Assembly (NCBI RefSeq): GCF_009914755.1
Contig: NC_060946.1
Reading direction: 5' to 3' (one strand)
DNA length: 64,000 nt
DNA from: the human T2T-CHM13v2.0 reference genome, Homo sapiens
Positions 1-37,081 of this stretch are shown here, piece by piece. Positions within the stretch are counted from its first letter, which is position 1. Each line of letters opens with the position of its first letter. The notes under the pieces are model-generated. The model was given only the letters and a program-made list of their open reading frames with translations. It was not told the origin of the DNA and did not search any database. Position numbers and translations under genes: made by a program.

Positions 1-122
1 GAAGGAAGGAAGCAAGCAAGGAAGAAAGGAAGGAAGGAAAGAAGGAAGGAAGGACGGAAGGAAGGAAGGAAGGAAGGAAGGAAGGAAGGAAGGAAGGAAG
101 GAAAGAAGGATGAAAGGAAGGA
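1..122 (+). repeat. GGAA microsatellite (also ~6607-6716 and equivalent positions in each unit)
   Basis: Longest pure run: 12 GGAA at 56-103, 8 at 6666-6697, 9 in the 6601-bp units, 11 at 59452-59495. Confidence 0.97.
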
Positions 123-174
123 GAAAACACCGGTGTTACTAAAACCCCCCAAAAAATGGTTTCCCCCTGTGGGT

Positions 175-510
175 AAGCCTACAATGTGGATGAATCTTGA
201 AAATATTGTTCTACGTGTTATGTCAGTCATAGCAGCTCACCTATTGTGCAATTCCGTTTATAGGAAATGTCCACAATATGGAAATCTATGCATATGGGAT
301 TGATCGCACTAGGTAGTTGCTACCTAGGTCTGAGGGTCAGGGAGAGGGTTTGAGACAGAATGAGGAGTGACTAATGTCTACAGGGTCTTTCTCTGGTCGG
401 GGGTGATAAGACGTTTTACAATGGATTGCGAATTAAAATTGAATGTGCACAACCACAGGTATACTAAAAGCCACTCAATTCATGACCTTTAATGGGGGAA
501 TCTTACGTGG
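175..510 (+). mobile_element. Old L1M (L1MB/L1ME-type) 3' UTR fragment (also ~6770-7105 etc.)
   Basis: tggatgaatcttgaaaatattg...tattgtgcaattccgtttataggaaatgtcca...atactaaaagccactcaatt...ctttaa resembles L1M 3' UTR consensus. Confidence 0.75.
488..493 (-). terminator. Candidate proximal polyadenylation signal ATTAAA
   Basis: tttaat on + strand; on the minus strand a GU-rich stretch (TGTGGTTGTG) follows ~30 nt downstream; lies within the antisense L1M fragment. Confidence 0.3.
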
Positions 511-858
511 CGTAGTCTCATGGAGACCACGGCAGACATAGTGAGAGAGAAAAAGGTGAGTAAATATCTGAAACGGAGGCAGAAACAGAGAGAATGAAAA
601 GCCCTGTGAATGGAAGGGAGAGCGAAAAGGGAAAATGGTCCTATTTACAAATGACAGATGTGAAACTGGGGTTCACATCAACAGTGTCACTGCCAGGAAG
701 GAGGGTCATGCTAGCCATGTCACCGGTAGTGTGGCCCGCAGGGACGCTGACCTGCTGGAGCGTCGTGCCAGCATGGGCTGTGGCAACCACGTGGGCCAGC
801 AGGAGGTTCCCGCTGCACAGCTGTGGGGTGAGGATAGACTGGGTGGTGATATCGGCCA

Positions 859-3800
859 TTACAGAGGCCCTCTTCTGCTGGCAAGAGTGTGACAGTAGCA
901 AGTAGATGGACAGGCCTGCGTGTGAGGACGGAATGCAGGAGGGGTTCTTGTGCGCCTGGGTGTGGGGCCCTCACGGGAACCGTGGAGAAATGGCCAGGTA
1001 ACTGCGTCATGTGGGCTAGTAGATTGGCCAGGGCTTCGAACTGAAGGACGATAACGGGGAGTAGCTGTCAGGCCCTGGGAGTGCCTGAGTGTAAGTGGAG
1101 ATGGGTTTGGGGTCACTGAGGGATGCGTGGGAGCCATCCCTGTATAGGTACAGGTCATAGGGAGATAGTCTCGTGAGGCCTGTGAGTGTCTAGGGTTGTC
1201 CTGGGTGCCTGGGGCTGACTGTGGCAGAAATCTGGGGAAGGCTGGAGAGAAGCTGGGAGACCCAGGAGAGTCCCTGAAGGCAGGGGGTGAAGAGGTGAAA
1301 GAAATGGGGGAGGGTTGCAGTAAGGTCCGTGAGTTTGTAGGTGATTCCTGGGTGCGGGAAGCTGACTCCAGGTGAAATCTGGAGATGGTTGGAGAGTAGC
1401 TGAGAGAGACAGAAGAGTCCCTGAGGGCTGGGGGTGAGAACATGAGGGAGACGGGGGAGTAAGTCAGTGAAATTCGTGAGTTCGGTGGTGTATCGTGGGT
1501 GCCTGGAACTGACTCCAGCTGGAATCTAGAGAAGTTTTGAGAGTAGCTGAAGGAGACACAAGAGTCCCTGTGGGCTGAGGGCAAAGACCTGAGACAGACC
1601 AGGGAGGACCTCAGTGAAGTCTGTGAGTCTGTAGGTGATTCCGGAGTGTGGGAGGCTGACTCCCGCTGAAATCTGGGCGTGGTGGGAGAGTAGCTGGGAC
1701 AGACAGGAGAGTCCCAGGGGGCTGGGGGTGACGACGTGAGAGAGACTGGGGAGTAACTCAGTGAAATTGCTGAGTTGGTTGGTGATACCTGGGTGCCTGG
1801 AACTGACCCCCGCTGAAATCTGGGCATGGTTGGAGAGTAGCTGGGACACACAGGAGAGTCCCTGAGGGCTGGGGGTGAAGACATGAGCGAGACCGGGGAG
1901 TAACTGAGTGAAACTGGTGAGTTTGGTGGTGACTCCGGGGTGCCTGGAACTGACTCCAGCTGAAATGTGGGCGTGGTTGGAGAGTAGCTGGGACAGACAG
2001 GAGAGTCCCTGAGGACTGGTGAAGACATGAGAGAAACTGGAGAGTAATTGAGTGAAATTGGTGAGTTTGGTGGTGATTCCTGGGTGCCTGGAACTGACTC
2101 CCGCTGAAGTGTGGGCGTGGTTGGAGAGTAGCTGGGACACACAGGAGAGTCCCTGAGGGTTGGAGATAAAGACGTGCTAGAGACTGAGGAGTAACTGAGT
2201 GAAATTGGTGAGTTTGGTGGTGATTCCGGGGTGCCTGGAACGGACTCCAGCTGAAATGTGGGCGTGGTTGGAGAGTAGCTGGGACAGACGGGAGAGTCCC
2301 TGAGGGATGGTGAAGACATGAGAGAGACTGGGGAGTAACGCAGTGAAATTGGTGAGTTTGGTGGTGATTTCTGGGTGCCTGCAACGGACTCCCGCTGAAG
2401 TGTGGGCGTGCTTGGAGAGTAGCTGGGACAGACAGGCGAGTCCCTGAGGGTTGGAGATAAAGACGTGCTAGAGACTGAGGAGTAACTGAGTGAAATTGGT
2501 GAGTTTGGTGGTGATTCCGGGGTGCCTGGAACGGACTCCAGCTGAAATGTGGGCGTGGTTGGAGAGTAGCTGGGACAGACGGGAGAGTCCCTGAGGGATG
2601 GTGAAGACATGAGAGAGACTGGGGAGTAACGCAGTGAAATTGGTGAGTTTGGTGGTGATTTCTGGGTGCCTGCAACGGACTCCCGCTGAAGTGTGGGCGT
2701 GCTTGGAGAGTAGCTGGGACAGACAGGCGAGTCCCTGAGGGTTGGAGATAAAGACGTGCTGGAGACTGGGGAGTAACTCAGTGAAAGTGGTGGGCTTGGT
2801 GGTGATCCCAGGGTTCCTGGAACTGACCCGCGCTGAAATGTGGGCGTGGTTGGAGAGTAGCTGGGACAGACTGGAGGGTCCGTAAGGGCTGGGGGTGAAG
2901 ACGTGAGAGAGACTGGCGAGGATCTCACTGAGGTCTGTGAGTTTGTAGGTGTTTCTGGGGTGTGGGGTACAGACTCCCGCTGAAATCTGGGCGTAGTTGG
3001 AGAGTAGCTGGGACAGACAGGAGAGTCATGGGTGGCTGGGGGTGAGCTGCTGGATGATGGCAGTAAGAACATATGGTACATTATTGATGAATGAGGTGAC
3101 TGTGAAGAATCTCCAGAGGAGGACACGGGAGAACACAATGACATGAGTGACTGTCCTGCTTGGTTAGGAAAGGGAAACGTAAAGTTGTGGAATTCTGTTG
3201 ATGATGGATGTGAGAGTGGTGAAGCCCTGCGGGATGATGTAGAGGACTTCCACATCCCTGGTGAGGAGCTGCCCCTTGGGTCTGAGTTTCTGGGAGGGGA
3301 GAGGGAGAAGCTGGGTGAGGCAGGCATGAATCTTGAGGAGTCAGGGCTGGGGGACCGCTCATATTCTCCCGAGACCTGTGAGTCTCTGGGGGACTCCTGG
3401 GTGCATGGGGCTGACTCCCGCAGGAACCTGGGGATGGCTGGAGAGTAACTGGGAGCCACAGGAGGGTCCCTGAGGCCTGGGGGTGAAGAGATGCAAGACA
3501 CAGGGGTGGAGCAGCGTGAGGCTCGTGAGTTTGTAGGTGATTCCTGGGTGTGGGGGGCTGACTCCAGCTGAAATCTGGGGTTGTTTGGAGAGTAGCTGGG
3601 AGACACAGGAGAACCCCCGAGAGCTGGGGGTGAGCTGCTGGGTGATGGCAGTAAGAACATGTGGTATATTATTGATGAACGTGGGGACTCTGAGGAGTCC
3701 TCAGAGGAGGACACGGCAGAGCCCAATGGCTTCATTGATTGCCCATCACGGTGAGGACAGGGAAATGGGAGCTTGTGGGATTCTGGTGATGACAGAGGTG

Positions 3801-3993
3801 AGTGTGGTGAAGCCCTAGGGGATGGTGAATGGTAGTTCCGGATCCCTGGTGAGGAGCTTCCCCTTAAGCCTGAGTTTCTGAGAGGGGAGAGGGAGAAGCT
3901 GGGTGAGGCTCGCATGGACCTTGGGGTGTCCGTGCTGGGGGACCGTTCATAAGAAGAGCCAGACAAGACCCTACTGTTCTTAGGTGCAGACAT
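859..3993 (-). CDS. Ser/Pro-rich CTD-like repeat protein, copy 1 (1044 aa, short C-terminus)
   Basis: Uninterrupted ORF, ATG in ATCATGT context (A at -3), TATA/Inr upstream; one extra base near 865-870 gives ...RRGPL* rather than the longer tail. Confidence 0.7.
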   Translation of the reverse strand: MSAPKNSRVLSGSSYERSPSTDTPRSMRASPSFSLSPLRNSGLRGSSSPGIRNYHSPSPRASPHSPLSSPESHKLPFPCPHRDGQSMKPLGSAVSSSEDSSESPRSSIIYHMFLLPSPSSSPPALGGSPVSPSYSPNNPRFQLESAPHTQESPTNSRASRCSTPVSCISSPPGLRDPPVAPSYSPAIPRFLRESAPCTQESPRDSQVSGEYERSPSPDSSRFMPASPSFSLSPPRNSDPRGSSSPGMWKSSTSSRRASPLSHPSSTEFHNFTFPFPNQAGQSLMSLCSPVSSSGDSSQSPHSSIMYHMFLLPSSSSSPPATHDSPVCPSYSPTTPRFQRESVPHTPETPTNSQTSVRSSPVSLTSSPPALTDPPVCPSYSPTTPTFQRGSVPGTLGSPPSPPLSLSYSPVSSTSLSPTLRDSPVCPSYSPSTPTLQRESVAGTQKSPPNSPISLRYSPVSLMSSPSLRDSPVCPSYSPTTPTFQLESVPGTPESPPNSPISLSYSSVSSTSLSPTLRDSPVCPSYSPSTPTLQRESVAGTQKSPPNSPISLRYSPVSLMSSPSLRDSPVCPSYSPTTPTFQLESVPGTPESPPNSPISLSYSSVSSTSLSPTLRDSPVCPSYSPTTPTLQRESVPGTQESPPNSPISLNYSPVSLMSSPVLRDSPVCPSYSPTTPTFQLESVPGTPESPPNSPVSLSYSPVSLMSSPPALRDSPVCPSYSPTMPRFQRGSVPGTQVSPTNSAISLSYSPVSLTSSPPAPWDSPVCPSYSPTTPRFQRESASHTPESPTDSQTSLRSSLVCLRSLPSAHRDSCVSFSYSQNFSRFQLESVPGTHDTPPNSRISLTYSPVSLMFSPPALRDSSVSLSYSPTISRFHLESASRTQESPTNSRTLLQPSPISFTSSPPAFRDSPGSPSFSPAFPRFLPQSAPGTQDNPRHSQASRDYLPMTCTYTGMAPTHPSVTPNPSPLTLRHSQGLTATPRYRPSVRSPGQSTSPHDAVTWPFLHGSREGPTPRRTRTPPAFRPHTQACPSTCYCHTLASRRGPL
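1190..3050. repeat. Coding VNTR of 144/147-bp monomers (present in every unit)
   Basis: Motif ggagagtagctgggaca recurs every 144-147 bp; ten CPSYSP repeats plus three degenerate C-terminal ones here and two more at ~3390-3640. tggagataaagacgtgct at 2161 and 2452 gives a 291-bp dimer period. Confidence 0.97.
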
Positions 3994-4054
3994 GATTAGG
4001 AAACCTGCAGCTCCCAGGGGCCCCCACTAATGTTCTAACTCGCAGAAGGAAGGA

Positions 4055-4113
4055 GTGTGTGTGCGTGTGTGCGTGTGCGTGTGTGTGTGTGTGTGTTTGT
4101 GTGTGTGCGGTGT
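4055..4113 (+). repeat. (TG)n/(CG) microsatellite in the predicted 5' leader
   Basis: gtgtgtgtgcgtgtgtgcgtgtgcgtgtgt...; 4 bp longer in copies 4-8. Confidence 0.95.
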
Positions 4114-4157
4114 GAGGTATGGGCCCCTTAAGGAAATGGAAATCAACCAACCAATGG

Positions 4158-4183
4158 GACAGACAGACAGACAGACAGACAGA
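4158..4183 (+). repeat. (GACA)n microsatellite
   Basis: gacagacagacagacagacagacaga; expanded with a gtca interruption in copy 10 (~63253-63287). Confidence 0.95.
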
Positions 4184-4304
4184 GATTCACTTGCCCAAGT
4201 GTTCTGTCCTGTCCTCTGAATCCGCTTTCAAGTCGCAAGACGCTGTGAGCTCCAAGTCCACGCAGAGTCCGCCAAACGCTCCGGCCGCTGATCCGCTCCG
4301 CGAA

Positions 4305-4375
4305 GATCTGAGTACAGGCCAGCCAGGGTGGGTTTAAATAGCCTCGGGCGCAGCCTAGCAGCGGAAAGGGCCGAG
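4305..4375 (-). promoter_or_regulatory. Putative Pol II core promoter: TATA (4340-4333), Inr (+1 at 4309), GC-box position (4368-4375); repeated in every unit
   Basis: Minus strand reads TATTTAAA then TCAGATC (YYANWYY) with its A 31 nt after the first T of TATA; locally CpG-rich. Equivalent +1 positions: 10902, 17495, 24092, 30693, 37294, 43895, 50496, 57091, 63412. Confidence 0.7.
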
Positions 4376-4837
4376 CTTCACTCCTCCTTTCCATCAGTCA
4401 CCCCCAACTTTCCCAGGCTACACCTCGTAGGAAACTGTTCTCCTGCTTTGATTTCATGCGCCACCTTTGGGACAATCTAAGAACTTACAGGTTTTCTTGG
4501 CCAGATTTATTAGGAATTGTATGCACTGAAACACTGAAAACCAACTAGTGGTTCTGTGCTTCCCACGTTGTGGTTTTGACACCAGCAGCATCCTTGCCAC
4601 AATCAAACCCCGGAGATCCGCAGATCTGTGTTGTAACAAGACCTCCCCCTGACCCTGATGCATGGCAGTTGAAGAAGTCTTTCCGTGTAAGCGAAAAGAC
4701 TTTGAAGAAAAGGTGGAGATATGCGTAGTATAAACATTCTTTGGCTCTGGAACCACGTAGAGACTTGGGAGCCAGTTGGGTGGAGCATTCGTTGGATGAG
4801 GGTGCTCGGGTTAGGAATATCAAGGTGTTTCTCCAGA

Positions 4838-4848
4838 TAATCCAATCA
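4838..4848 (+). promoter_or_regulatory. DUX4-type double-homeodomain motif TAATCCAATCA (all 10 units)
   Basis: Matches the DUX4 consensus TAAYYBAATCA; also at 11431, 18024, 24621, 31222, 37823, 44424, 51025, 57620, 63941. Binding not demonstrated. Confidence 0.5.
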
Positions 4849-4929
4849 TCTAATTAAGATTCCAGTTATGCTCATCTGTTTTAAAATTCCGTTTGGGTAA
4901 ATTCTTTTAGTCAGACTGAGAATGGCAAA

Positions 4930-5390
4930 GCCTCAACCCCAATTTCCAGGGAGGGTGGAGAGCCTCAGGTGGAGTTGATCACCAATAGCCTATGGTTTAA
5001 CCCATCATGCCTATAGAATGAGGTCTCCATCAAAACCCAAAAGGACTGGGTTCAGAGAGCTTCTGGATAACACTTCCTGGAAGGTAGTGCACCCCTCCCC
5101 GCATGCCGGGCCCCACATTTATTTCTGAACTTTGTGCAATGTCCGCTAAAATACAACGGCAAATGTAAGTGTTTCCCTGCGTGCTGTGAGCTCTTCCAGC
5201 AAATGAATGCAACTAAATCTGGGAGTGGTGGCAACCTGATTTATAGCCAGTTGCTGAGAAGCACAGGTAAAACAACGTAGGGCTTCCCATTGTTATTGGT
5301 GTGGGAGGCCTGTCTGGCGGGACTCGGCCCTTTGGAATCTAATGCTATGTCCCGGTAGATAGCGTCACCATTGAATTAGAAGACACACAT
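4930..5390 (+). mobile_element. MER21-family LTR fragment (repeated per unit)
   Basis: Recognised from memory of the consensus: gttgatcaccaat...catgccta...aaaacccaaaaggactgggttcagagagctt, gtaagtgtttccctg...tgtgagc, ggtagatagcgtc...attgaattagaagacac. Subfamily not determined. Confidence 0.75.
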
Positions 5391-5559
5391 ATGTGGAGAA
5401 TAATCTTTCTGGTCATTTACTGCATGTCATATTTACAATATGTAATCAAATTCTTTATCCTGACCTTATGGCACCTGGGTTTAGGACCATGATTTGAACC
5501 AAACGTTGGTCTGTCACTTTCTGAGTTTGAAACTTTATTTTGCCTTTAGCGTTTTGCTA

Positions 5560-5860
5560 TTGCTTTTTCGTTTTCTTTTGTTTCGTTTCGTTTCTAAGTT
5601 CTGGGGTATATGTGCAGGATGTGCAGATTTGTTACTAAGGTAAACGTGTGCCATGGTGGTTTGCTGCACCTGTCAACCCGTCACCTAGGTATTAAGCCCA
5701 GCATGCAGTAGCTGTTTTTCTTAACGCTCTGCCTCCCGAAAGGCCCCAGTGTGTGTTGTTCCCCTTCCTGTGTCCATGGGATCTCACTTTTCAGCTCCCA
5801 TTATAAGTGAGAAGGTGGCGTTTGGTTTTCTTTCCCTGGATTAGTTTGCTGACGATAATG
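5560..5860 (-). mobile_element. L1PA 3'-end fragment with decayed poly(A) tail (repeated per unit)
   Basis: T-rich tail then gttctggggtatatgtgcaggatgtgcag...gtgtgccatggtggtttgctgcacc...cacctaggtattaagcccagcatgca...cccagtgtgtgttgttcccc, typical antisense L1PA (roughly L1PA8-10) 3' UTR. Confidence 0.9.
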
Positions 5861-5877
5861 ACCACACATCACCACTG

Positions 5878-6235
5878 TTTTTGTTTTTTAGTATAAAGAG
5901 TAGTATTTTATTGAATAAGATTTGCTCACAGAAAAATAAGCTTAAATCTACAATGAATGCCAGACCCTACAGCAGAAAGCAATTTTCTCACTTTTCCACA
6001 CACAATGGTTCCTACTAAGTGAAAAAAAAGCCATAAAATTTCATTCACAAATGTACTACTCTGTCTCAAAACATCTCACGTAATCATGCACTGTACTAAA
6101 GCCATCAGATCAGTTCTTCAGTCAGGTTAAAGAAGTATCCCTCTAATAACTGACTTTTATAATGCTATCAATATCCACTCCCAATCAGTCTGCCATTGTT
6201 AATGGTGTACAGCATTACTGAATACAACGGAATTG
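5878..6235 (-). other. Poly(A)-tailed mRNA-like 3' end (possible retrocopied 3' UTR), repeated per unit
   Basis: Minus strand AATAAA at 5912-5907, then 17 nt, then an A-rich tract at 5889-5878; preceded by AU-rich non-TE-looking sequence. Source gene not recognised. Confidence 0.5.
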
Positions 6236-6249
6236 ATGACGCCCATATC

Positions 6250-6387
6250 CACAGACAAACCGTGACTTATGATGGTTTGATTTATGATTTTTCAACGTTA
6301 TGATGGGTTTATTGGAATATTAGATTCGTTTCTGAGTTACACTGGGTTTATGAGTATGCGACCCTACACTCCAGAAACAGCTGTATA
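6250..6387. mobile_element. MER47-like Tigger-derived MITE (repeated per unit)
   Basis: gacttatgatggtttgatttatgatttttcaacgttatgatgggtttatt matches CpG-decayed MER47 terminal sequence. Confidence 0.65.
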
Positions 6388-7313
6388 AGGAAAAACAGGT
6401 GTACCTAATAAAAATATGCTTAGTGACTTGGGATAAACCAATAGATGTTCACAAGTGATGGAGAGCCGTGAAAGAGAGATAGCGGTAAATAGTTACAATA
6501 ACACAATTTTCCTGCACCTGTCGAGGATTTCCCCCAAAAAACGCAGAATGTGGGATGCACCTAAGGCATATGAAAGAGAGAGGGCAGAAGGAGTAAGAGA
6601 GAAATAGGAGGAAGGAAGGAAGGAAGCAAGGAAGAAAGGAAGGAAGGAAAGAAGGAAGGAAGGACGGAAGGAAGGAAGGAAGGAAGGAAGGAAGGAAAGA
6701 AGGATGAAAGGAAGGAGAAAACACCGGTGTTACTAAAACCCCCCAAAAAATGGTTTCCCCCTGTGGGTAAGCCTACAATGTGGATGAATCTTGAAAATAT
6801 TGTGCTACGTGTTATGTCAGTCATAGCAGCTCACCTATTGTGCAATTCCGTTTATAGGAAATGTCCACAATATGGAAATCTATGCATATGGGATTGATCG
6901 CACTAGGTAGTTGCTACCTAGGGCTGAGGGTCAGGGAGAGGGTTTGAGACAGAATGAGGAGTGACTAATGTCTACAGGGTCTTTCTCTGGTCGGGGGTGA
7001 TAAGACGTTTTACAATGGATTGCGAATTAAAATTGAATGTGCACAACCACAGGTATACTAAAAGCCACTCAATTCATGACCTTTAATGGGGGAATCTTAC
7101 GTGGCGTAGTCTCATGGAGACCACGGCAGACATAGTGAGAGAGAAAAAGGTGAGTAAATATCTGAAACGGAGGCAGAAACAGAGAGAATGAAAAGCCCTG
7201 TGAATGGAAGGGAGAGCGAAAAGGGAAAATGGTCCTATTTACAAATGACAGATGTGAAACTGGGGTTCACATCAACAGTGTCACTGCCAGGAAGGAGGGT
7301 CATGCTAGCCATG

Positions 7314-10300
7314 TCACCGGTAGTGTGGCCCGCAGGGACGCCGACCTGCTGGAGCGTCGTGCCAGCATGGGCTGTGGCAACCACGTGGGCCAGCAGGAGG
7401 TTCCCGCTGCACAGCTGTGGGGTGAGGATAGACTGGGTGGTGATATCGGCCATTACAGGGGCCTCTTCTGCTGGCAAGAGTGTGACAGTAGCAAGTAGAT
7501 GGACAGGCCTGCGTGTGAGGACGGAATGCAGGAGGGGTTCTTGTGCGCCTGGGTGTGGGGCCCTCACGGGAACCGTGGAGAAATGGCCAGGTAACTGCGT
7601 CATGTGGGCTAGTAGATTGGCCAGGGCTTCGAACTGAAGGACGATAATGGGGAGTAGCTGTCAGGCCCTGGGAGTGCCTGAGTGTAAGTGGAGATGGGTT
7701 TGGGGTCACTGAGGGATGCGTGGGAGCCATCCCTGTATAGGTACAGGTCATAGGGAGATAGTCTCGTGAGGCCTGTGAGTGTCTAGGGTTGTCCTGGGTG
7801 CCTGGGGCTGACTGTGGCAGAAATCTGGGGAAGGCTGGAGAGAAGCTGGGAGACCCAGGAGAGTCCCTGAAGGCAGGGGGTGAAGAGGTGAAAGAAATGG
7901 GGGAGGGTTGCAGTAAGGTCCGTGAGTTTGTAGGTGATTCCTGGGTGCGGGAAGCTGACTCCAGGTGAAATCTGGAGATGGTTGGAGAGTAGCTGAGAGA
8001 GACAGAAGAGTCCCTGAGGGCTGGGGGTGAGAACATGAGGGAGACGGGGGAGTAAGTCAGTGAAATTCGTGAGTTCGGTGGTGTATCGTGGGTGCCTGGA
8101 ACTGACTCCAGCTGGAATCTAGAGAAGTTTTGAGAGTAGCTGAAGGAGACACAAGAGTCCCTGTGGGCTGAGGGCAAAGACCTGAGACAGACCAGGGAGG
8201 ACCTCAGTGAAGTCTGTGAGTCTGTAGGTGATTCCGGAGTGTGGGAGGCTGACTCCCGCTGAAATCTGGGCGTGGTGGGAGAGTAGCTGGGACAGACAGG
8301 AGAGTCCCAGGGGGCTGGGGGTGACGACGTGAGAGAGACTGGGGAGTAACTCAGTGAAATTGCTGAGTTGGTTGGTGATACCTGGGTGCCTGGAACTGAC
8401 CCCCGCTGAAATCTGGGCATGGTTGGAGAGTAGCTGGGACACACAGGAGAGTCCCTGAGGGCTGGGGGTGAAGACATGAGCGAGACCGGGGAGTAACTGA
8501 GTGAAACTGGTGAGTTTGGTGGTGACTCCGGGGTGCCTGGAACTGACTCCAGCTGAAATGTGGGCGTGGTTGGAGAGTAGCTGGGACAGACAGGAGAGTC
8601 CCTGAGGACTGGTGAAGACATGAGAGAGACTGGAGAGTAATTGAGTGAAATTGGTGAGTTTGGTGGTGATTCCTGGGTGCCTGGAACTGACTCCCGCTGA
8701 AGTGTGGGCGTGGTTGGAGAGTAGCTGGGACACACAGGAGAGTCCCTGAGGGTTGGAGATAAAGACGTGCTAGAGACTGAGGAGTAACTGAGTGAAATTG
8801 GTGAGTTTGGTGGTGATTCCGGGGTGCCTGGAACGGACTCCAGCTGAAATGTGGGCGTGGTTGGAGAGTAGCTGGGACAGACGGGAGAGTCCCTGAGGAA
8901 TGGTGAAGACATGAGAGAGACTGGGGAGTAACGCAGTGAAATTGGTGAGTTTGGTGGTGATTTCTGGGTGCCTGCAACGGACTCCCGCTGAAGTGTGGGC
9001 GTGCTTGGAGAGTAGCTGGGACAGACAGGCGAGTCCCTGAGGGTTGGAGATAAAGACGTGCTAGAGACTGAGGAGTAACTGAGTGAAATTGGTGAGTTTG
9101 GTGGTGATTCCGGGGTGCCTGGAACGGACTCCAGCTGAAATGTGGGCGTGGTTGGAGAGTAGCTGGGACAGACGGGAGAGTCCCTGAGGGATGGTGAAGA
9201 CATGAGAGAGACTGGGGAGTAACGCAGTGAAATTGGTGAGTTTGGTGGTGATTTCTGGGTGCCTGCAACAGACTCCCGCTGAAGTGTGGGCGTGCTTGGA
9301 GAGTAGCTGGGACAGACAGGCGAGTCCCTGAGGGTTGGAGATAAAGACGTGCTGGAGACTGGGGAGTAACTCAGTGAAAGTGGTGGGCTTGGTGGTGATC
9401 CCAGGGTTCCTGGAACTGACCCGCGCTGAAATGTGGGCGTGGTTGGAGAGTAGCTGGGACAGACTGGAGGGTCCGTAAGGGCTGGGGGTGAAGACGTGAG
9501 AGAGACTGGCGAGGATCTCACTGAGGTCTGTGAGTTTGTAGGTGTTTCTGGGGTGTGGGGTACAGACTCCCGCTGAAATCTGGGCGTAGTTGGAGAGTAG
9601 CTGGGACAGACAGGAGAGTCATGGGTGGCTGGGGGTGAGCTGCTGGATGATGGCAGTAAGAACATATGGTACATTATTGATGAATGAGGTGACTGTGAAG
9701 AATCTCCAGAGGAGGACACGGGAGAACACAATGACATGAGTGACTGTCCTGCTTGGTTAGGAAAGGGAAACGTAAAGTTGTGGAATTCTGTTGATGATGG
9801 ATGTGAGAGTGGTGAAGCCCTGCGGGATGATGTAGAGGACTTCCACATCCCTGGTGAGGAGCTGCCCCTTGGGTCTGAGTTTCTGGGAGGGGAGAGGGAG
9901 AAGCTGGGTGAGGCAGGCATGAATCTTGAGGAGTCAGGGCTGGGGGACCGCTCATATTCTCCCGAGACCTGTGAGTCTCTGGGGGACTCCTGGGTGCATG
10001 GGGCTGACTCCCGCAGGAACCTGGGGATGGCTGGAGAGTAACTGGGAGCCACAGGAGGGTCCCTGAGGCCTGGGGGTGAAGAGATGCAAGACACAGGGGT
10101 GGAGCAGCGTGAGGCTCGTGAGTTTGTAGGTGATTCCTGGGTGTGGGGGGCTGACTCCAGCTGAAATCTGGGGTTGTTTGGAGAGTAGCTGGGAGACACA
10201 GGAGAACCCCCGAGAGCTGGGGGTGAGCTGCTGGGTGATGGCAGTAAGAACATGTGGTATATTATTGATGAACGTGGGGACTCTGAGGAGTCCTCAGAGG

Positions 10301-10586
10301 AGGACACGGCAGAGCCCAATGGCTTCATTGATTGCCCATCACGGTGAGGACAGGGAAATGGGAGCTTGTGGGATTCTGGTGATGACAGAGGTGAGTGTGG
10401 TGAAGCCCTAGGGGATGGTGAATGGTAGTTCCGGATCCCTGGTGAGGAGCTTCCCCTTAAGCCTGAGTTTCTGAGAGGGGAGAGGGAGAAGCTGGGTGAG
10501 GCTCGCATGGACCTTGGGGTGTCCGTGCTGGGGGACCGTTCATAAGAAGAGCCAGACAAGACCCTACTGTTCTTAGGTGCAGACAT
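7314..10586 (-). CDS. Ser/Pro-rich CTD-like repeat protein, copy 2 (1090 aa)
   Basis: Intact ORF with 48/49-aa repeats containing YSPTTPT-type heptads. Confidence 0.7.
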   Translation of the reverse strand: MSAPKNSRVLSGSSYERSPSTDTPRSMRASPSFSLSPLRNSGLRGSSSPGIRNYHSPSPRASPHSPLSSPESHKLPFPCPHRDGQSMKPLGSAVSSSEDSSESPRSSIIYHMFLLPSPSSSPPALGGSPVSPSYSPNNPRFQLESAPHTQESPTNSRASRCSTPVSCISSPPGLRDPPVAPSYSPAIPRFLRESAPCTQESPRDSQVSGEYERSPSPDSSRFMPASPSFSLSPPRNSDPRGSSSPGMWKSSTSSRRASPLSHPSSTEFHNFTFPFPNQAGQSLMSLCSPVSSSGDSSQSPHSSIMYHMFLLPSSSSSPPATHDSPVCPSYSPTTPRFQRESVPHTPETPTNSQTSVRSSPVSLTSSPPALTDPPVCPSYSPTTPTFQRGSVPGTLGSPPSPPLSLSYSPVSSTSLSPTLRDSPVCPSYSPSTPTLQRESVAGTQKSPPNSPISLRYSPVSLMSSPSLRDSPVCPSYSPTTPTFQLESVPGTPESPPNSPISLSYSSVSSTSLSPTLRDSPVCPSYSPSTPTLQRESVAGTQKSPPNSPISLRYSPVSLMSSPFLRDSPVCPSYSPTTPTFQLESVPGTPESPPNSPISLSYSSVSSTSLSPTLRDSPVCPSYSPTTPTLQRESVPGTQESPPNSPISLNYSPVSLMSSPVLRDSPVCPSYSPTTPTFQLESVPGTPESPPNSPVSLSYSPVSLMSSPPALRDSPVCPSYSPTMPRFQRGSVPGTQVSPTNSAISLSYSPVSLTSSPPAPWDSPVCPSYSPTTPRFQRESASHTPESPTDSQTSLRSSLVCLRSLPSAHRDSCVSFSYSQNFSRFQLESVPGTHDTPPNSRISLTYSPVSLMFSPPALRDSSVSLSYSPTISRFHLESASRTQESPTNSRTLLQPSPISFTSSPPAFRDSPGSPSFSPAFPRFLPQSAPGTQDNPRHSQASRDYLPMTCTYTGMAPTHPSVTPNPSPLTLRHSQGLTATPHYRPSVRSPGQSTSPHDAVTWPFLHGSREGPTPRRTRTPPAFRPHTQACPSTCYCHTLASRRGPCNGRYHHPVYPHPTAVQREPPAGPRGCHSPCWHDAPAGRRPCGPHYR

Positions 10587-13500
10587 GATTAGGAAACCTG
10601 CAGCTCCCAGGGGCCCCCACTAATGTTCTAACTCGCAGAAGGAAGGAGTGTGTGTGCGTGTGTGCGTGTGCGTGTGTGTGTGTGTGTGTTTGTGTGTGTG
10701 CGGTGTGAGGTATGGGCCCCTTAAGGAAATGGAAATCAACCAACCAATGGGACAGACAGACAGACAGACAGACAGAGATTCACTTGCCCAAGTGTTCTGT
10801 CCTGTCCTCTGAATCCGCTTTCAAGTCGCAAGACGCTGTGAGCTCCAAGTCCACGCAGAGTCCGCCAAACGCTCCGGCCGCTGATCCGCTCCGCGAAGAT
10901 CTGAGTACAGGCCAGCCAGGGTGGGTTTAAATAGCCTCGGGCGCAGCCTAGCAGCGGAAAGGGCCGAGCTTCACTCCTCCTTTCCATCAGTCACCCCCAA
11001 CTTTCCCAGGCTACACCTCGTAGGAAACTGTTCTCCTGCTTTGATTTCATGCGCCACCTTTGGGACAATCTAAGAACTTACAGGTTTTCTTGGCCAGATT
11101 TATTAGGAATTGTATGCACTGAAACACTGAAAACCAACTAGTGGTTCTGTGCTTCCCACGTTGTGGTTTTGACACCAGCAGCATCCTTGCCACAATCAAA
11201 CCCCGGAGATCCGCAGATCTGTGTTGTAACAAGACCTCCCCCTGACCCTGATGCATGGCAGTTGAAGAAGTCTTTCCGTGTAAGCGAAAAGACTTTGAAG
11301 AAAAGGTGGAGATATGCGTAGTATAAACATTCTTTGGCTCTGGAACCACGTAGAGACTTGGGAGCCAGTTGGGTGGAGCATTCGTTGGATGAGGGTGCTC
11401 GGGTTAGGAATATCAAGGTGTTTCTCCAGATAATCCAATCATCTAATTAAGATTCCAGTTATGCTCATCTGTTTTAAAATTCCGTTTGGGTAAATTCTTT
11501 TAGTCAGACTGAGAATGGCAAAGCCTCAACCCCAATTTCCAGGGAGGGTGGAGAGCCTCAGGTGGAGTTGATCACCAATAGCCTATGGTTTAACCCATCA
11601 TGCCTATAGAATGAGGTCTCCATCAAAACCCAAAAGGACTGGGTTCAGAGAGCTTCTGGATAACACTTCCTGGAAGGTAGTGCACCCCTCCCCGCATGCC
11701 GGGCCCCACATTTATTTCTGAACTTTGTGCAATGTCCGCTAAAATACAACGGCAAATGTAAGTGTTTCCCTGCGTGCTGTGAGCTCTTCCAGCAAATGAA
11801 TGCAACTAAATCTGGGAGTGGTGGCAACCTGATTTATAGCCAGTTGCTGAGAAGCACAGGTAAAACAACGTAGGGCTTCCCATTGTTATTGGTGTGGGAG
11901 GCCTGTCTGGCGGGACTCGGCCCTTTGGAATCTAATGCTATGTCCCGGTAGATAGCGTCACCATTGAATTAGAAGACACACATATGTGGAGAATAATCTT
12001 TCTGGTCATTTACTGCATGTCATATTTACAATATGTAATCAAATTCTTTATCCTGACCTTATGGCACCTGGGTTTAGGACCATGATTTGAACCAAACGTT
12101 GGTCTGTCACTTTCTGAGTTTGAAACTTTATTTTGCCTTTAGCGTTTTGCTATTGCTTTTTCGTTTTCTTTTGTTTCGTTTCGTTTCTAAGTTCTGGGGT
12201 ATATGTGCAGGATGTGCAGATTTGTTACTAAGGTAAACGTGTGCCATGGTGGTTTGCTGCACCTGTCAACCCGTCACCTAGGTATTAAGCCCAGCATGCA
12301 GTAGCTGTTTTTCTTAACGCTCTGCCTCCCGAAAGGCCCCAGTGTGTGTTGTTCCCCTTCCTGTGTCCATGGGATCTCACTTTTCAGCTCCCATTATAAG
12401 TGAGAAGGTGGCGTTTGGTTTTCTTTCCCTGGATTAGTTTGCTGACGATAATGACCACACATCACCACTGTTTTTGTTTTTTAGTATAAAGAGTAGTATT
12501 TTATTGAATAAGATTTGCTCACAGAAAAATAAGCTTAAATCTACAATGAATGCCAGACCCTACAGCAGAAAGCAATTTTCTCACTTTTCCACACACAATG
12601 GTTCCTACTAAGTGAAAAAAAAGCCATAAAATTTCATTCACAAATGTACTACTCTGTCTCAAAACATCTCACGTAATCATGCACTGTACTAAAGCCATCA
12701 GATCAGTTCTTCAGTCAGGTTAAAGAAGTATCCCTCTAATAACTGACTTTTATAATGCTATCAATATCCACTCCCAATCAGTCTGCCATTGTTAATGGTG
12801 TACAGCATTACTGAATACAACGGAATTGATGACGCCCATATCCACAGACAAACCGTGACTTATGATGGTTTGATTTATGATTTTTCAACGTTATGATGGG
12901 TTTATTGGAATATTAGATTCGTTTCTGAGTTACACTGGGTTTATGAGTATGCGACCCTACACTCCAGAAACAGCTGTATAAGGAAAAACAGGTGTACCTA
13001 ATAAAAATATGCTTAGTGACTTGGGATAAACCAATAGATGTTCACAAGTGATGGAGAGCCGTGAAAGAGAGATAGCGGTAAATAGTTACAATAACACAAT
13101 TTTCCTGCACCTGTCGAGGATTTCCCCCAAAAAACGCAGAATGTGGGATGCACCTAAGGCATATGAAAGAGAGAGGGCAGAAGGAGTAAGAGAGAAATAG
13201 GAGGAAGGAAGGAAGGAAGCAAGGAAGAAAGGAAGGAAGGAAAGAAGGAAGGAAGGACGGAAGGAAGGAAGGAAGGAAGGAAGGAAGGAAAGAAGGATGA
13301 AAGGAAGGAGAAAACACCGGTGTTACTAAAACCCCCCAAAAAATGGTTTCCCCCTGTGGGTAAGCCTACAATGTGGATGAATCTTGAAAATATTGTGCTA
13401 CGTGTTATGTCAGTCATAGCAGCTCACCTATTGTGCAATTCCGTTTATAGGAAATGTCCACAATATGGAAATCTATGCATATGGGATTGATCGCACTAGG

Positions 13501-13906
13501 TAGTTGCTACCTAGGGCTGAGGGTCAGGGAGAGGGTTTGAGACAGAATGAGGAGTGACTAATGTCTACAGGGTCTTTCTCTGGTCGGGGGTGATAAGACG
13601 TTTTACAATGGATTGCGAATTAAAATTGAATGTGCACAACCACAGGTATACTAAAAGCCACTCAATTCATGACCTTTAATGGGGGAATCTTACGTGGCGT
13701 AGTCTCATGGAGACCACGGCAGACATAGTGAGAGAGAAAAAGGTGAGTAAATATCTGAAACGGAGGCAGAAACAGAGAGAATGAAAAGCCCTGTGAATGG
13801 AAGGGAGAGCGAAAAGGGAAAATGGTCCTATTTACAAATGACAGATGTGAAACTGGGGTTCACATCAACAGTGTCACTGCCAGGAAGGAGGGTCATGCTA
13901 GCCATG

Positions 13907-16900
13907 TCACCGGTAGTGTGGCCCGCAGGGACGCCGACCTGCTGGAGCGTCGTGCCAGCATGGGCTGTGGCAACCACGTGGGCCAGCAGGAGGTTCCCGC
14001 TGCACAGCTGTGGGGTGAGGATAGACTGGGTGGTGATATCGGCCATTACAGGGGCCTCTTCTGCTGGCAAGAGTGTGACAGTAGCAAGTAGATGGACAGG
14101 CCTGCGTGTGAGGACGGAATGCAGGAGGGGTTCTTGTGCGCCTGGGTGTGGGGCCCTCACGGGAACCGTGGAGAAATGGCCAGGTAACTGCGTCATGTGG
14201 GCTAGTAGATTGGCCAGGGCTTCGAACTGAAGGACGATAATGGGGAGTAGCTGTCAGGCCCTGGGAGTGCCTGAGTGTAAGTGGAGATGGGTTTGGGGTC
14301 ACTGAGGGATGCGTGGGAGCCATCCCTGTATAGGTACAGGTCATAGGGAGATAGTCTCGTGAGGCCTGTGAGTGTCTAGGGTTGTCCTGGGTGCCTGGGG
14401 CTGACTGTGGCAGAAATCTGGGGAAGGCTGGAGAGAAGCTGGGAGACCCAGGAGAGTCCCTGAAGGCAGGGGGTGAAGAGGTGAAAGAAATGGGGGAGGG
14501 TTGCAGTAAGGTCCGTGAGTTTGTAGGTGATTCCTGGGTGCGGGAAGCTGACTCCAGGTGAAATCTGGAGATGGTTGGAGAGTAGCTGAGAGAGACAGAA
14601 GAGTCCCTGAGGGCTGGGGGTGAGAACATGAGGGAGACGGGGGAGTAAGTCAGTGAAATTCGTGAGTTCGGTGGTGTATCGTGGGTGCCTGGAACTGACT
14701 CCAGCTGGAATCTAGAGAAGTTTTGAGAGTAGCTGAAGGAGACACAAGAGTCCCTGTGGGCTGAGGGCAAAGACCTGAGACAGACCAGGGAGGACCTCAG
14801 TGAAGTCTGTGAGTCTGTAGGTGATTCCGGAGTGTGGGAGGCTGACTCCCGCTGAAATCTGGGCGTGGTGGGAGAGTAGCTGGGACAGACAGGAGAGTCC
14901 CAGGGGGCTGGGGGTGACGACGTGAGAGAGACTGGGGAGTAACTCAGTGAAATTGCTGAGTTGGTTGGTGATACCTGGGTGCCTGGAACTGACCCCCGCT
15001 GAAATCTGGGCATGGTTGGAGAGTAGCTGGGACACACAGGAGAGTCCCTGAGGGCTGGGGGTGAAGACATGAGCGAGACCGGGGAGTAACTGAGTGAAAC
15101 TGGTGAGTTTGGTGGTGACTCCGGGGTGCCTGGAACTGACTCCAGCTGAAATGTGGGCGTGGTTGGAGAGTAGCTGGGACAGACAGGAGAGTCCCTGAGG
15201 ACTGGTGAAGACATGAGAGAGACTGGAGAGTAATTGAGTGAAATTGGTGAGTTTGGTGGTGATTCCTGGGTGCCTGGAACTGACTCCCGCTGAAGTGTGG
15301 GCGTGGTTGGAGAGTAGCTGGGACACACAGGAGAGTCCCTGAGGGTTGGAGATAAAGACGTGCTAGAGACTGAGGAGTAACTGAGTGAAATTGGTGAGTT
15401 TGGTGGTGATTCCGGGGTGCCTGGAACGGACTCCAGCTGAAATGTGGGCGTGGTTGGAGAGTAGCTGGGACAGACGGGAGAGTCCCTGAGGAATGGTGAA
15501 GACATGAGAGAGACTGGGGAGTAACGCAGTGAAATTGGTGAGTTTGGTGGTGATTTCTGGGTGCCTGCAACGGACTCCCGCTGAAGTGTGGGCGTGCTTG
15601 GAGAGTAGCTGGGACAGACAGGCGAGTCCCTGAGGGTTGGAGATAAAGACGTGCTAGAGACTGAGGAGTAACTGAGTGAAATTGGTGAGTTTGGTGGTGA
15701 TTCCGGGGTGCCTGGAACGGACTCCAGCTGAAATGTGGGCGTGGTTGGAGAGTAGCTGGGACAGACGGGAGAGTCCCTGAGGGATGGTGAAGACATGAGA
15801 GAGACTGGGGAGTAACGCAGTGAAATTGGTGAGTTTGGTGGTGATTTCTGGGTGCCTGCAACAGACTCCCGCTGAAGTGTGGGCGTGCTTGGAGAGTAGC
15901 TGGGACAGACAGGCGAGTCCCTGAGGGTTGGAGATAAAGACGTGCTGGAGACTGGGGAGTAACTCAGTGAAAGTGGTGGGCTTGGTGGTGATCCCAGGGT
16001 TCCTGGAACTGACCCGCGCTGAAATGTGGGCGTGGTTGGAGAGTAGCTGGGACAGACTGGAGGGTCCGTAAGGGCTGGGGGTGAAGACGTGAGAGAGACT
16101 GGCGAGGATCTCACTGAGGTCTGTGAGTTTGTAGGTGTTTCTGGGGTGTGGGGTACAGACTCCCGCTGAAATCTGGGCGTAGTTGGAGAGTAGCTGGGAC
16201 AGACAGGAGAGTCATGGGTGGCTGGGGGTGAGCTGCTGGATGATGGCAGTAAGAACATATGGTACATTATTGATGAATGAGGTGACTGTGAAGAATCTCC
16301 AGAGGAGGACACGGGAGAACACAATGACATGAGTGACTGTCCTGCTTGGTTAGGAAAGGGAAACGTAAAGTTGTGGAATTCTGTTGATGATGGATGTGAG
16401 AGTGGTGAAGCCCTGCGGGATGATGTAGAGGACTTCCACATCCCTGGTGAGGAGCTGCCCCTTGGGTCTGAGTTTCTGGGAGGGGAGAGGGAGAAGCTGG
16501 GTGAGGCAGGCATGAATCTTGAGGAGTCAGGGCTGGGGGACCGCTCATATTCTCCCGAGACCTGTGAGTCTCTGGGGGACTCCTGGGTGCATGGGGCTGA
16601 CTCCCGCAGGAACCTGGGGATGGCTGGAGAGTAACTGGGAGCCACAGGAGGGTCCCTGAGGCCTGGGGGTGAAGAGATGCAAGACACAGGGGTGGAGCAG
16701 CGTGAGGCTCGTGAGTTTGTAGGTGATTCCTGGGTGTGGGGGGCTGACTCCAGCTGAAATCTGGGGTTGTTTGGAGAGTAGCTGGGAGACACAGGAGAAC
16801 CCCCGAGAGCTGGGGGTGAGCTGCTGGGTGATGGCAGTAAGAACATGTGGTATATTATTGATGAACGTGGGGACTCTGAGGAGTCCTCAGAGGAGGACAC

Positions 16901-17179
16901 GGCAGAGCCCAATGGCTTCATTGATTGCCCATCACGGTGAGGACAGGGAAATGGGAGCTTGTGGGATTCTGGTGATGACAGAGGTGAGTGTGGTGAAGCC
17001 CTAGGGGATGGTGAATGGTAGTTCCGGATCCCTGGTGAGGAGCTTCCCCTTAAGCCTGAGTTTCTGAGAGGGGAGAGGGAGAAGCTGGGTGAGGCTCGCA
17101 TGGACCTTGGGGTGTCCGTGCTGGGGGACCGTTCATAAGAAGAGCCAGACAAGACCCTACTGTTCTTAGGTGCAGACAT
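13907..17179 (-). CDS. Ser/Pro-rich CTD-like repeat protein, copy 3 (1090 aa)
   Basis: Intact ORF; translation appears identical to copy 2. Confidence 0.7.
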   Translation of the reverse strand: MSAPKNSRVLSGSSYERSPSTDTPRSMRASPSFSLSPLRNSGLRGSSSPGIRNYHSPSPRASPHSPLSSPESHKLPFPCPHRDGQSMKPLGSAVSSSEDSSESPRSSIIYHMFLLPSPSSSPPALGGSPVSPSYSPNNPRFQLESAPHTQESPTNSRASRCSTPVSCISSPPGLRDPPVAPSYSPAIPRFLRESAPCTQESPRDSQVSGEYERSPSPDSSRFMPASPSFSLSPPRNSDPRGSSSPGMWKSSTSSRRASPLSHPSSTEFHNFTFPFPNQAGQSLMSLCSPVSSSGDSSQSPHSSIMYHMFLLPSSSSSPPATHDSPVCPSYSPTTPRFQRESVPHTPETPTNSQTSVRSSPVSLTSSPPALTDPPVCPSYSPTTPTFQRGSVPGTLGSPPSPPLSLSYSPVSSTSLSPTLRDSPVCPSYSPSTPTLQRESVAGTQKSPPNSPISLRYSPVSLMSSPSLRDSPVCPSYSPTTPTFQLESVPGTPESPPNSPISLSYSSVSSTSLSPTLRDSPVCPSYSPSTPTLQRESVAGTQKSPPNSPISLRYSPVSLMSSPFLRDSPVCPSYSPTTPTFQLESVPGTPESPPNSPISLSYSSVSSTSLSPTLRDSPVCPSYSPTTPTLQRESVPGTQESPPNSPISLNYSPVSLMSSPVLRDSPVCPSYSPTTPTFQLESVPGTPESPPNSPVSLSYSPVSLMSSPPALRDSPVCPSYSPTMPRFQRGSVPGTQVSPTNSAISLSYSPVSLTSSPPAPWDSPVCPSYSPTTPRFQRESASHTPESPTDSQTSLRSSLVCLRSLPSAHRDSCVSFSYSQNFSRFQLESVPGTHDTPPNSRISLTYSPVSLMFSPPALRDSSVSLSYSPTISRFHLESASRTQESPTNSRTLLQPSPISFTSSPPAFRDSPGSPSFSPAFPRFLPQSAPGTQDNPRHSQASRDYLPMTCTYTGMAPTHPSVTPNPSPLTLRHSQGLTATPHYRPSVRSPGQSTSPHDAVTWPFLHGSREGPTPRRTRTPPAFRPHTQACPSTCYCHTLASRRGPCNGRYHHPVYPHPTAVQREPPAGPRGCHSPCWHDAPAGRRPCGPHYR

Positions 17180-20100: not shown

Positions 20101-20499
20101 TACCTAGGGCTGAGGGTCAGGGAGAGGGTTTGAGACAGAATGAGGAGTGACTAATGTCTACAGGGTCTTTCTCTGGTCGGGGGTGATAAGACGTTTTACA
20201 ATGGATTGCGAATTAAAATTGAATGTGCACAACCACAGGTATACTAAAAGCCACTCAATTCATGACCTTTAATGGGGGAATCTTACGTGGCGTAGTCTCA
20301 TGGAGACCACGGCAGACATAGTGAGAGAGAAAAAGGTGAGTAAATATCTGAAACGGAGGCAGAAACAGAGAGAATGAAAAGCCCTGTGAATGGAAGGGAG
20401 AGCGAAAAGGGAAAATGGTCCTATTTACAAATGACAGATGTGAAACTGGGGTTCACATCAACAGTGTCACTGCCAGGAAGGAGGGTCATGCTAGCCATG

Positions 20500-23772: not shown

Positions 23773-23847
23773 GATTAGGAAACCTGCAGCTCCCAGGGGC
23801 CCCCACTAATGTTCTAACTCGCAGAAGGAAGGAGTGTGTGTGCGTGT

Positions 23848-23879
<32 letters not shown>

Positions 23880-24150
23880 TTGTGTGTGTGCGGTGTGAGG
23901 TATGGGCCCCTTAAGGAAATGGAAATCAACCAACCAATGGGACAGACAGACAGACAGACAGACAGAGATTCACTTGCCCAAGTGTTCTGTCCTGTCCTCT
24001 GAATCCGCTTTCAAGTCGCAAGACGCTGTGAGCTCCAAGTCCACGCAGAGTCCGCCAAACGCTCCGGCCGCTGATCCGCTCCGCGAAGATCTGAGTACAG
24101 GCCAGCCAGGGTGGGTTTAAATAGCCTCGGGCGCAGCCTAGCAGCGGAAA

Positions 24151-30448: not shown

Positions 30449-30480
<32 letters not shown>

Positions 30481-37049: not shown

Positions 37050-37081
<32 letters not shown>

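What the first reader, a model, noticed from the sequence alone, without database searches (positions are those of the whole stretch)
3991..4375. Complete TATA-Inr promoter with an AUG-free leader pointing at the ORF
Seen: TATTTAAA at -31, Inr TCAGATC at +1 (4309), GC-box position near -60, CpG-rich surroundings, and by my reading no ATG on the minus strand between 4309 and the ORF ATG at 3993 (A at -3). This independent evidence argues the ORF is a gene and not a by-product of VNTR composition.
Basis: partly seen in the sequence, partly recalled or inferred. Interest (0 to 1): 0.7.

Follow-up and report, generated by a model that had tools for sequence, protein, structure and literature searches.

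The report
Hidden gene promoter in ACRO satellite
This TATA-box motif set sits at the head of every 6.6-kb unit of a human "gene-free" satellite (ACRO), in front of a ~1,000-codon reading frame that has relatives in marmoset and rabbit, so the satellite is likely an overlooked gene family of about 200 copies that would make an RNA-polymerase-tail-like protein, probably in very early embryos.

Summary
Mostly confirmed. TATTTAAA (4340-4333), Inr with A+1 at 4309 and no ATG before 3993 are real in all 10 units. The GC box is mutated in this unit and intact in 7 of 10. The leader likely holds a ~190-nt intron (donor GTAAGT in old copies, GCAAGT here). The window is the ACRO composite (ACRO1 satellite), described as gene-free and primate-specific. 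Yet each unit reads like a whole gene: DUX4 site (-530), GC/TATA/Inr, exon 1, intron, ~1,000-1,100-codon Ser/Pro/Thr frame with YSP motifs in heptad register like the Pol II CTD, and an ATTAAA signal. At least 177 exact promoter copies exist. A marmoset model starts at the same Met, a non-human 47%-identical protein shares start and end, and a rabbit model shares the C-terminal Cys motif. An old chr8 paralogue took 6 frameshifts while this lineage took none. Against: dN/dS is about 1-1.5 among recent human copies, several are broken, and no transcript end or peptide was seen. This unit is slightly degenerate (GC box lost, last 46 aa lost). Verdict: likely the promoter of an unannotated amplified gene family; protein and function untested.

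The parts
4838..4848 (+). DUX4-type site TAATCCAATCA, about -530 from the predicted start; one per unit
   Evidence: 10 of 10 units, 0.21 expected in the whole window; present in 23 of 29 fetched loci; this CC form is bound and activated by DUX4 in PMC4730607 (passages). Looked for post hoc.
4368..4373 (-). GC-box position (-64..-59); mutated at 4372 in this unit
   Evidence: CCGCCC in 7 of 10 window units and 15 of 15 other loci aligned
4333..4340 (-). TATA box TATTTAAA (-31)
   Evidence: 177 exact genome-wide copies of the 22-mer that begins with it, 0 for the reversed control; mutated in a chr14 copy and in the chr8 paralogue
4305..4311 (-). Initiator TCAGATC, predicted +1 at 4309
   Evidence: kept in the 78%-identical chr8 paralogue
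4200..4400 (.). small CpG-rich patch over the core promoter and exon 1
   Evidence: GC 0.59, CpG o/e 0.86, 15 CpG
4195..4309 (-). predicted non-coding exon 1 (115 nt)
   Evidence: inferred from the donor position
4189..4194 (-). predicted 5' splice site: GCAAGT here (GC-type), GTAAGT in chr19, chr2:132.7 Mb and chr8 copies, ACAAGT in most chr14 distal units
   Evidence: lies in a 53-nt block with one mismatch to chr8 (permutation P=0.001, about 12 nt of it microsatellite)
4005..4194 (-). predicted 5'-UTR intron with (TCTG)n 4158-4183 and (CA)n 4055-4107; acceptor AG at 4006-4005 (invariant in 16 of 16 aligned copies) or 4036-4035 (better pyrimidine tract)
   Evidence: splicing not shown
859..3993 (-). 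ORF, 1044 aa in this unit (1090 aa in 8 and 992 aa in 1 of the other 9 units); Ser/Pro/Thr 50%
1199..3045 (-). ACRO1 147-bp VNTR = 49-aa unit = 7 heptads, with [YFH]SP spaced by multiples of 7 in 19 of 24 intervals
880..912 (-). C-terminal motif CPSTCYCHTLA, conserved to rabbit
861..870 (-). one extra base in this unit only, giving a stop at 861-859 and loss of the last 46 residues
488..493 (-). predicted polyadenylation signal ATTAAA followed by a GT-rich stretch
   Evidence: kept in 9 of 10 copies shown
1..64000 (.). tandem array of ~6.6-kb ACRO composite units (10 promoters; unit junction near 5290-5390 in this unit's coordinates)
   Evidence: published Acro probe primers match every unit

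Best explanation
The motifs are likely the RNA polymerase II core promoter of an old mammalian gene that has been amplified whole as the 6.6-kb ACRO unit, and that would make a disordered protein resembling the Pol II C-terminal domain (CTD), probably in cleavage-stage embryos. Shown in sequence: each unit carries in order a DUX4-type site, GC box, TATA, Inr, donor, microsatellites, acceptor, ATG, a ~1,000-1,100-codon frame and ATTAAA; there are about 200 units on chr13, 14, 15, 21, 22, 3 and 4, and single copies on chr19, 2, 1 and 8. Inferred steps: (1) DUX4, helped by low methylation, opens the unit and Pol II starts at about 4309; (2) a 190-nt leader intron is spliced in old GT copies, and because the leader has no AUG the amplified GC/AC-donor copies stay translatable even if it is retained; (3) the product is a Ser/Pro/Thr-rich chain of SPxxPSYSPTxP di-heptads with a Cys/His C-terminal motif; (4) it most likely acts as a decoy or scaffold for CTD kinases, phosphatases and readers during genome activation (about 35% for this step alone). 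The unit in question is a slightly degenerate member.
For: Same start Met and in-frame homology in a marmoset model (71% over 330 aa). Unnamed protein P0064 is collinear from MSAP to the stop (142 of 298 aligned residues identical to the compact human chr2:161.7 Mb ORF), and its best human match is only 48% among 114 loci scored of 1514 candidates. Rabbit model P0048 shares the C-terminal motif (E 7e-13). The chr8 paralogue (78-80% DNA identity) has 6 frameshifting indels of 8 in about 1,160 ORF bases, while the ACRO frame is the one P0064 uses. Against chr19 and chr2 copies the ORF has 1 indel (3 nt) in 2x1563 nt and the flanks 17 in 2x1570 nt (the two comparisons are not independent). Older internal duplications show dN/dS 0.52-0.72 (p 0.007-0.07). 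90 of 114 scored loci have an open frame of 900 codons or more (my count). ACRO1 RNA peaks at the 4-cell stage (PMC6545021), is reported as DUX4-induced (PMC8990217, PMC11467316, both second-hand), and ACRO1 DNA is hypomethylated in spermatogonia and sperm (PMC5832720).
Against: Among 13 human paralogues dN/dS is 0.8-2.0 pairwise and 1.1-1.2 pooled, and 1.48 in the 11 amplified copies. 7 nonsense variants against about 11-12 expected is not significant (P 0.08-0.15), and the loci were chosen for good matches. The fetched GT-donor copies whose ORF I read (chr19:47.232 and 47.284 Mb, chr2:132.7 Mb, chr8) are all broken. Array copies are homogenised, so intact frames are not independent. The marmoset model has a ~65-residue stretch that reads like another frame and only 7 [YFH]SP motifs against 25. 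No exact YSPTSPS occurs. ACRO1 RNA blocks Pol II elongation in cis in HeLa reporters and no stable transcript was found there (PMC7714431). RefSeq annotates nothing in the window. The non-human records are predictions. No TSS, splice junction, ribosome or peptide data were available.
Confidence: 0.62

Rival explanations
1. Real promoter of a formerly coding gene whose human copies now drift: the frame stays open only because the arrays were recently homogenised from an intact founder, and any function lies in the RNA or in chromatin near the nucleolar organisers.
For: dN/dS about 1-1.5 in recent copies and no significant lack of stops; loss of the GT donor in about 210 copies; mutated TATA and donor in chr14 units; self-silencing RNA.
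Against: Copies up to 4-5% apart on different chromosomes keep 896-1138-aa frames. A compact chr2:161.7 Mb copy and a database protein 350/358 identical to it are both intact. dN/dS above 1 also fits positive selection.
Confidence: 0.27
2. Chance motifs, or a transposon-derived promoter, beside a frame that is open because the C-rich VNTR strand lacks stops.
For: TATA+Inr occurs by chance in 14% of shuffled units; alternative VNTR frames are also stop-poor; the unit contains MER21B and L1 pieces (10.64898/2025.12.22.696095).
Against: Position-specific chance 0.16% or less. The published 1.1-kb non-transposon probe spans 3637-4838 and so covers the promoter. The promoter is shared with chr8, which lacks the upstream LTR region. 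Unique parts of the ORF are conserved as protein in distant mammals.
Confidence: 0.06
3. A recent primate retrocopy of the 3' end of POLR2A mRNA that landed behind an unrelated promoter, as suggested for ACRO1 by Boots et al. 2020.
For: The VNTR aligns in phase with the POLR2A CTD exon at 56-60% DNA identity over 220-370 nt (77 bits against at most 33 for codon-shuffled controls, which do not keep the heptad period); phmmer E 9e-7 to RPB1.
Against: No homology to 600 nt of POLR2A 3' UTR (best E 0.025 over 27 nt). N- and C-terminal domains are unrelated to RPB1. The compact homologue P0064 has a single di-heptad. The family reaches rabbit. An ancient CTD-derived seed is not excluded.
Confidence: 0.05

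Closest known systems
ACRO composite / ACRE / ACRO1 satellite (Warburton 2008 PMC2588610; Boots 2020 PMC7714431; Hoyt 2021 preprint; 10.64898/2025.12.22.696095)
   Same: It is this repeat: 147-bp ACRO1 block in a ~6-6.6-kb unit on the acrocentrics, chr3 and chr4; the published probe primers match; CTD likeness of the translated 49-aa consensus is already noted.
   Different: The passages read treat it as containing no gene and as primate-specific. Here it has a promoter, a leader intron, one long ORF with unique ends, a polyA signal and non-primate protein relatives.
Gene-bearing macrosatellites such as D4Z4/DUX4 and CT47 (named); RS447/USP17L (recalled)
   Same: A whole transcription unit repeated in tandem, silent in most tissues, with expression reported in early embryos.
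   Different: About 200 units over at least seven chromosomes; the protein is mostly an internal VNTR and matches no Pfam family; no protein has been shown.
Pol II RPB1 CTD, and the CTD-like heptad array of ZNF768 (PMC6344866, abstract)
   Same: Heptad register, YSP and SP/TP motifs, species-specific array length.
   Different: No exact YSPTSPS; only about two YSP per 7 heptads; no polymerase body or C2H2 fingers; own N-terminal module and Cys/His C-terminal motif.

Membership tests
ACRO composite | 147-bp ACRO1 array inside a ~6-kb tandem unit | tested here: met
   period 147, 12.6 copies, unit spacing about 6.6 kb
ACRO composite | matches the published Acro probe primers | tested here: met
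   left primer exact in 10 of 10 units; right primer with 0-2 mismatches in 10 of 10
ACRO composite | L1PA10, MER21B and L1MB8 subunits | not testable with these tools
   no Dfam or Repbase library; names taken
TATA-Inr Pol II core promoter | TATA at about -31 and Inr at +1 | tested here: met
TATA-Inr Pol II core promoter | upstream GC box | tested here: not met
   mutated in this unit; met in 7 of 10 window units
TATA-Inr Pol II core promoter | capped 5' ends at +1, TBP/TFIID binding, TATA-dependent activity | not testable with these tools
   no CAGE, ChIP or reporter data
CpG-island promoter | GC above 0.5-0.55 and CpG o/e above 0.6-0.65 over 200-500 bp (recalled criteria) | tested here: inconclusive
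   met over 200 bp, not over 500 bp
Protein-coding gene | frame, start and end conserved across species | tested here: met
   (non-human side is predicted proteins only)
Protein-coding gene | purifying selection on amino acids | tested here: inconclusive
   0.52-0.72 in old internal duplications, about 1-1.5 in recent paralogues
Protein-coding gene | spliced polyadenylated mRNA and protein detected | not testable with these tools
   only repeat-level RNA counts in the papers read
RPB1 CTD (Pfam PF05001) | tandem consensus YSPTSPS heptads above the family cut-off | tested here: not met
   0 exact heptads; no Pfam hit; no ACRO locus among the 17 PF05001 matches, 150 of 629 candidates scored. It resembles the CTD but is not a member.
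POLR2A processed retrocopy | homology to the POLR2A 3' UTR | tested here: not met
DUX4 target | consensus site near the promoter | tested here: met
DUX4 target | DUX4 occupancy and induction of this start site | not testable with these tools
   induction of ACRO1 RNA seen only as cited in other papers

The most novel reading that the evidence does not exclude
ACRO, the repeat most specific to ape acrocentric short arms, is one of the highest-copy protein-coding gene families in the human genome: about 200 DUX4-driven TATA promoters fire at embryonic genome activation to make a free, ~1,000-residue mimic of the Pol II CTD that titrates or scaffolds CTD kinases, phosphatases and readers, grown by VNTR expansion from a small ancient mammalian gene.
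Probability: 0.3. Interest if true: 0.93.

Novelty: new variant of a known kind. Interest (0 to 1): 0.78.

Why it matters
If true, the T2T annotation misses a gene family of about 200 copies on the acrocentric short arms, outside the rDNA, whose copy number and repeat length can vary. It would explain why ACRO is kept on ape acrocentrics and why its RNA peaks at the 4-cell stage and follows DUX4. It would add a candidate regulator of embryonic genome activation, a candidate effector in FSHD, and a possible tumour antigen. The exact start site, splice junction, polyA site and unique peptides given here make this testable with existing embryo and DUX4 long-read, CAGE, ribosome-profiling and proteomics data.

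Tried and rejected
3'-UTR intron: the donor-like GTAAGA at 506-501 is absent from the 9 other copies shown; rejected. Known non-coding RNA driven by this promoter: no Rfam match in 400-7300. P0045 first looked like a distant mammal but is the human chr8 paralogue (99.5%), so it was dropped from the cross-species evidence. P0070 (best 46% to fetched loci) was not searched genome-wide and is not relied on. Atlas search of the marmoset protein gave leads under 0.9 only and a low-confidence model (pLDDT 0.40), which fits disorder. Pattern searches were too short or ill-chosen and gave nothing. No fold or complex prediction was run. dN/dS left out 3 of 16 aligned sequences: chr15:1.94 (frameshift), chr4:49.24 and chr13:5.34 (C-terminal anchor not found); the chr14 locus was not in the alignment. 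The synteny of the chr19 copies was not established; a search for ACRO1 with ZNF229 (a recalled neighbour) found no paper. Hendrickson et al. 2017 could not be read.

Full report
1. Observation. On the minus strand TATTTAAA lies at 4340-4333, TCAGATC has its A at 4309, and the first ATG downstream is 3993 with A at -3. The window is ten tandem units of about 6.6 kb and all ten have this layout. In shuffles, a loose TATA with an Inr 29-33 nt on appears somewhere in 14% of whole units, but in 0.16% of the 600 nt before the ATG, and in 0 of 5000 with a GC box (unit 4). The GC box at -64..-59 is intact in 7 of 10 units and 15 of 15 other loci aligned, and mutated at 4372 in this unit. CpG enrichment is a 200-bp patch. 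The AUG-free leader has P=0.02 over 316 nt.

2. Identity. The unit is the ACRO composite. The 147-bp array is at 1199-3045, and the primers of Warburton's non-transposon Acro probe match each unit at 3637-3656 and 4819-4838, bracketing the promoter. Warburton lists it among megasatellites that do not contain genes (passages). Boots et al. noted that the translated consensus is 23/49 identical to the Pol II CTD, found no non-primate homologue, and showed that its RNA blocks elongation in cis (parts 1-3 of 5 and a term search). A recent preprint calls ACRO the repeat class most enriched on ape acrocentrics (passages). Genome-wide there are 177 exact copies of the TATA 22-mer and 213 plus 4 matches to the donor pattern, a few probably chance.

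3. The leader probably holds an intron. Copies at chr19:47.23-47.28 Mb, chr2:132.7 Mb and chr8:48.46 Mb read TGG|GTAAGT where this unit reads TGG|GCAAGT (4194-4189); most chr14 distal units read ACAAGT. Then come (TCTG)n, (CA)n, a pyrimidine tract and AGs at 4036-4035 and 4006-4005; the last is invariant in 16 of 16 aligned copies. Against chr8 (78% overall) the two best-kept blocks are the exon end with donor (96%) and the 5' UTR end with ATG (97%). These windows were picked after viewing; the longest-run permutation gives P=0.001, and about 12 nt of the run is microsatellite. Inference: exon 1 of 115 nt and an intron of about 190 nt. Since the unspliced leader has no AUG, a weak donor need not stop translation.

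4. The ORF. It is 1090 aa in 8 units, 992 in 1 and 1044 here, where one extra base removes the last 46 residues. Half the residues are S, P or T; [YFH]SP motifs are spaced by multiples of 7 in 19 of 24 intervals; there is no exact YSPTSPS and no Pfam hit. Inside the VNTR the other sense frames have only 5 and 4 stops in 615 codons, so composition helps there. In the unique ends frame 0 has none and the others have 3-9; shuffles of the first and last 190 codons stay open in 53 and 37 of 3000 trials. ATTAAA at 493-488 is kept in 9 of 10 copies shown.

5. Relatives. A marmoset model (832 aa, auto-named RPB1) starts at the same Met, is 71% identical over 330 aa and ends in the same C-terminal region, though a ~65-residue stretch reads like another frame. 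Two titi monkey models share the C-terminus. P0064, from an unnamed record, is collinear from MSAP to the stop with a compact intact human copy at chr2:161.74 Mb (358 aa, full promoter; 142 of 298 aligned residues identical). Its best human hit is 48% (114 scored of 1514), so it is likely non-human; P0073 behaves alike. A rabbit model shares CPS.CYCH..A.R..NG (E 7e-13) but not the N-terminus. So the family likely predates primates, against the published view. All non-human records are predictions and I could not see their DNA.

6. Selection. For: the chr8 paralogue, which is further from the marmoset protein (52%) than ACRO is, carries 6 frameshifting indels in about 1,160 ORF bases while the ACRO frame matches P0064 throughout. 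ORF indels are scarce relative to flanks (1 against 17). The old N-terminal duplication and the VNTR units give dN/dS 0.52-0.72 (p 0.007-0.07). 90 of 114 scored loci have frames of 900 codons or more (my count; scoring favours intact copies). Against: recent paralogues give dN/dS about 1-1.5, the nonsense deficit is not significant, and the GT-donor copies read are broken. This fits a fast-evolving birth-and-death family, but also drift after homogenisation.

7. Regulation. One TAATCCAATCA per unit lies at 4838-4848 (10 seen, 0.21 expected; found post hoc) and in 23 of 29 loci (three of the six without it are chr8 pieces). DUX4 binds and activates this form (PMC4730607 passages). ACRO1 RNA peaks at the 4-cell stage (PMC6545021 passages) and rises in early embryos, with hypomethylation in spermatogonia and sperm (PMC5832720 passage). 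It is said to be DUX4-induced in three papers citing others (passages) and is raised in plasma vesicles of Ewing sarcoma patients (PMC11060741 passages). These are repeat-level counts without strand or start site.

8. Origin of the CTD likeness. The VNTR aligns in phase with the POLR2A CTD exon at 56-60%, but nothing matches the POLR2A 3' UTR. P0064 has one DSPVSPSYSPTIP di-heptad and marmoset few YSP. A recent retrocopy is unlikely; an ancient seed later expanded is the simpler reading. ZNF768 is a precedent for a CTD-like array outside RPB1 (abstract). The decoy or scaffold role is inference.

9. Novelty. Eight searches on ACRO gave no listing that describes a promoter, intron or long ORF in the unit; only one paper holds both ACRO1 and CTD. 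I read passages, not whole texts, and no supplements (Boots SI Fig. S3 and Hoyt Fig. S10 may bear on this). Paywalled papers and gene databases were out of reach. Automated models exist in other species, and an Atlas cluster called extensin-like (993 aa, 70 members, score 0.89) may be this family.

10. Verdict. The motifs are real and beyond chance in their position. Best reading (0.62): the promoter of an unannotated, tandemly amplified protein-coding gene family. Main rival (0.27): a real promoter of a family now drifting. This particular unit is a degenerate member. Interest 0.78.

Noticed in passing
L029 1207-2610 (G000:C2:161.74 Mb): Single-copy compact member outside any array: intact GC box, TATA, Inr, DUX4 site and a 358-aa ORF with no VNTR expansion; a database protein is 350/358 identical. 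An Alu-like stretch begins about 50 nt after the stop. Uniquely mappable, so the easiest copy to test.
   Followed up: partly
L026/L027 (G000:C8:48.46 Mb): Old, compact, frameshifted paralogue (74-80% identity) with GT donor, mutated TATA and no DUX4 site.
   Followed up: yes
L009, L025 (G000:C19:47.23-47.29 Mb): Three copies with GT donors, two in tandem and one inverted, in euchromatic 19q; the two ORFs read are broken; one has two DUX4-type sites. Possible source locus; synteny not tested.
   Followed up: partly
L014 (chr14 distal array): TATA, GC box and donor are all mutated, yet a 993-aa ORF is intact.
   Followed up: partly
window 6609-6716 and equivalents: (GGAA)n-type microsatellite of 27-31 copies in every unit, a possible EWS-FLI1 site; ACRO1 RNA is high in Ewing sarcoma plasma vesicles but was not much changed by EWS-FLI1 in HeLa.
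   Followed up: no
window units 1-3 against 4-10: The GC-box mutation and the shorter leader (ATG at +317) mark the first three units as a recent sub-block of the array.
   Followed up: no
G000:C15:100-150 kb and C21:100-220 kb: Distal arrays with longer VNTRs and open frames of 1145-1513 codons.
   Followed up: no
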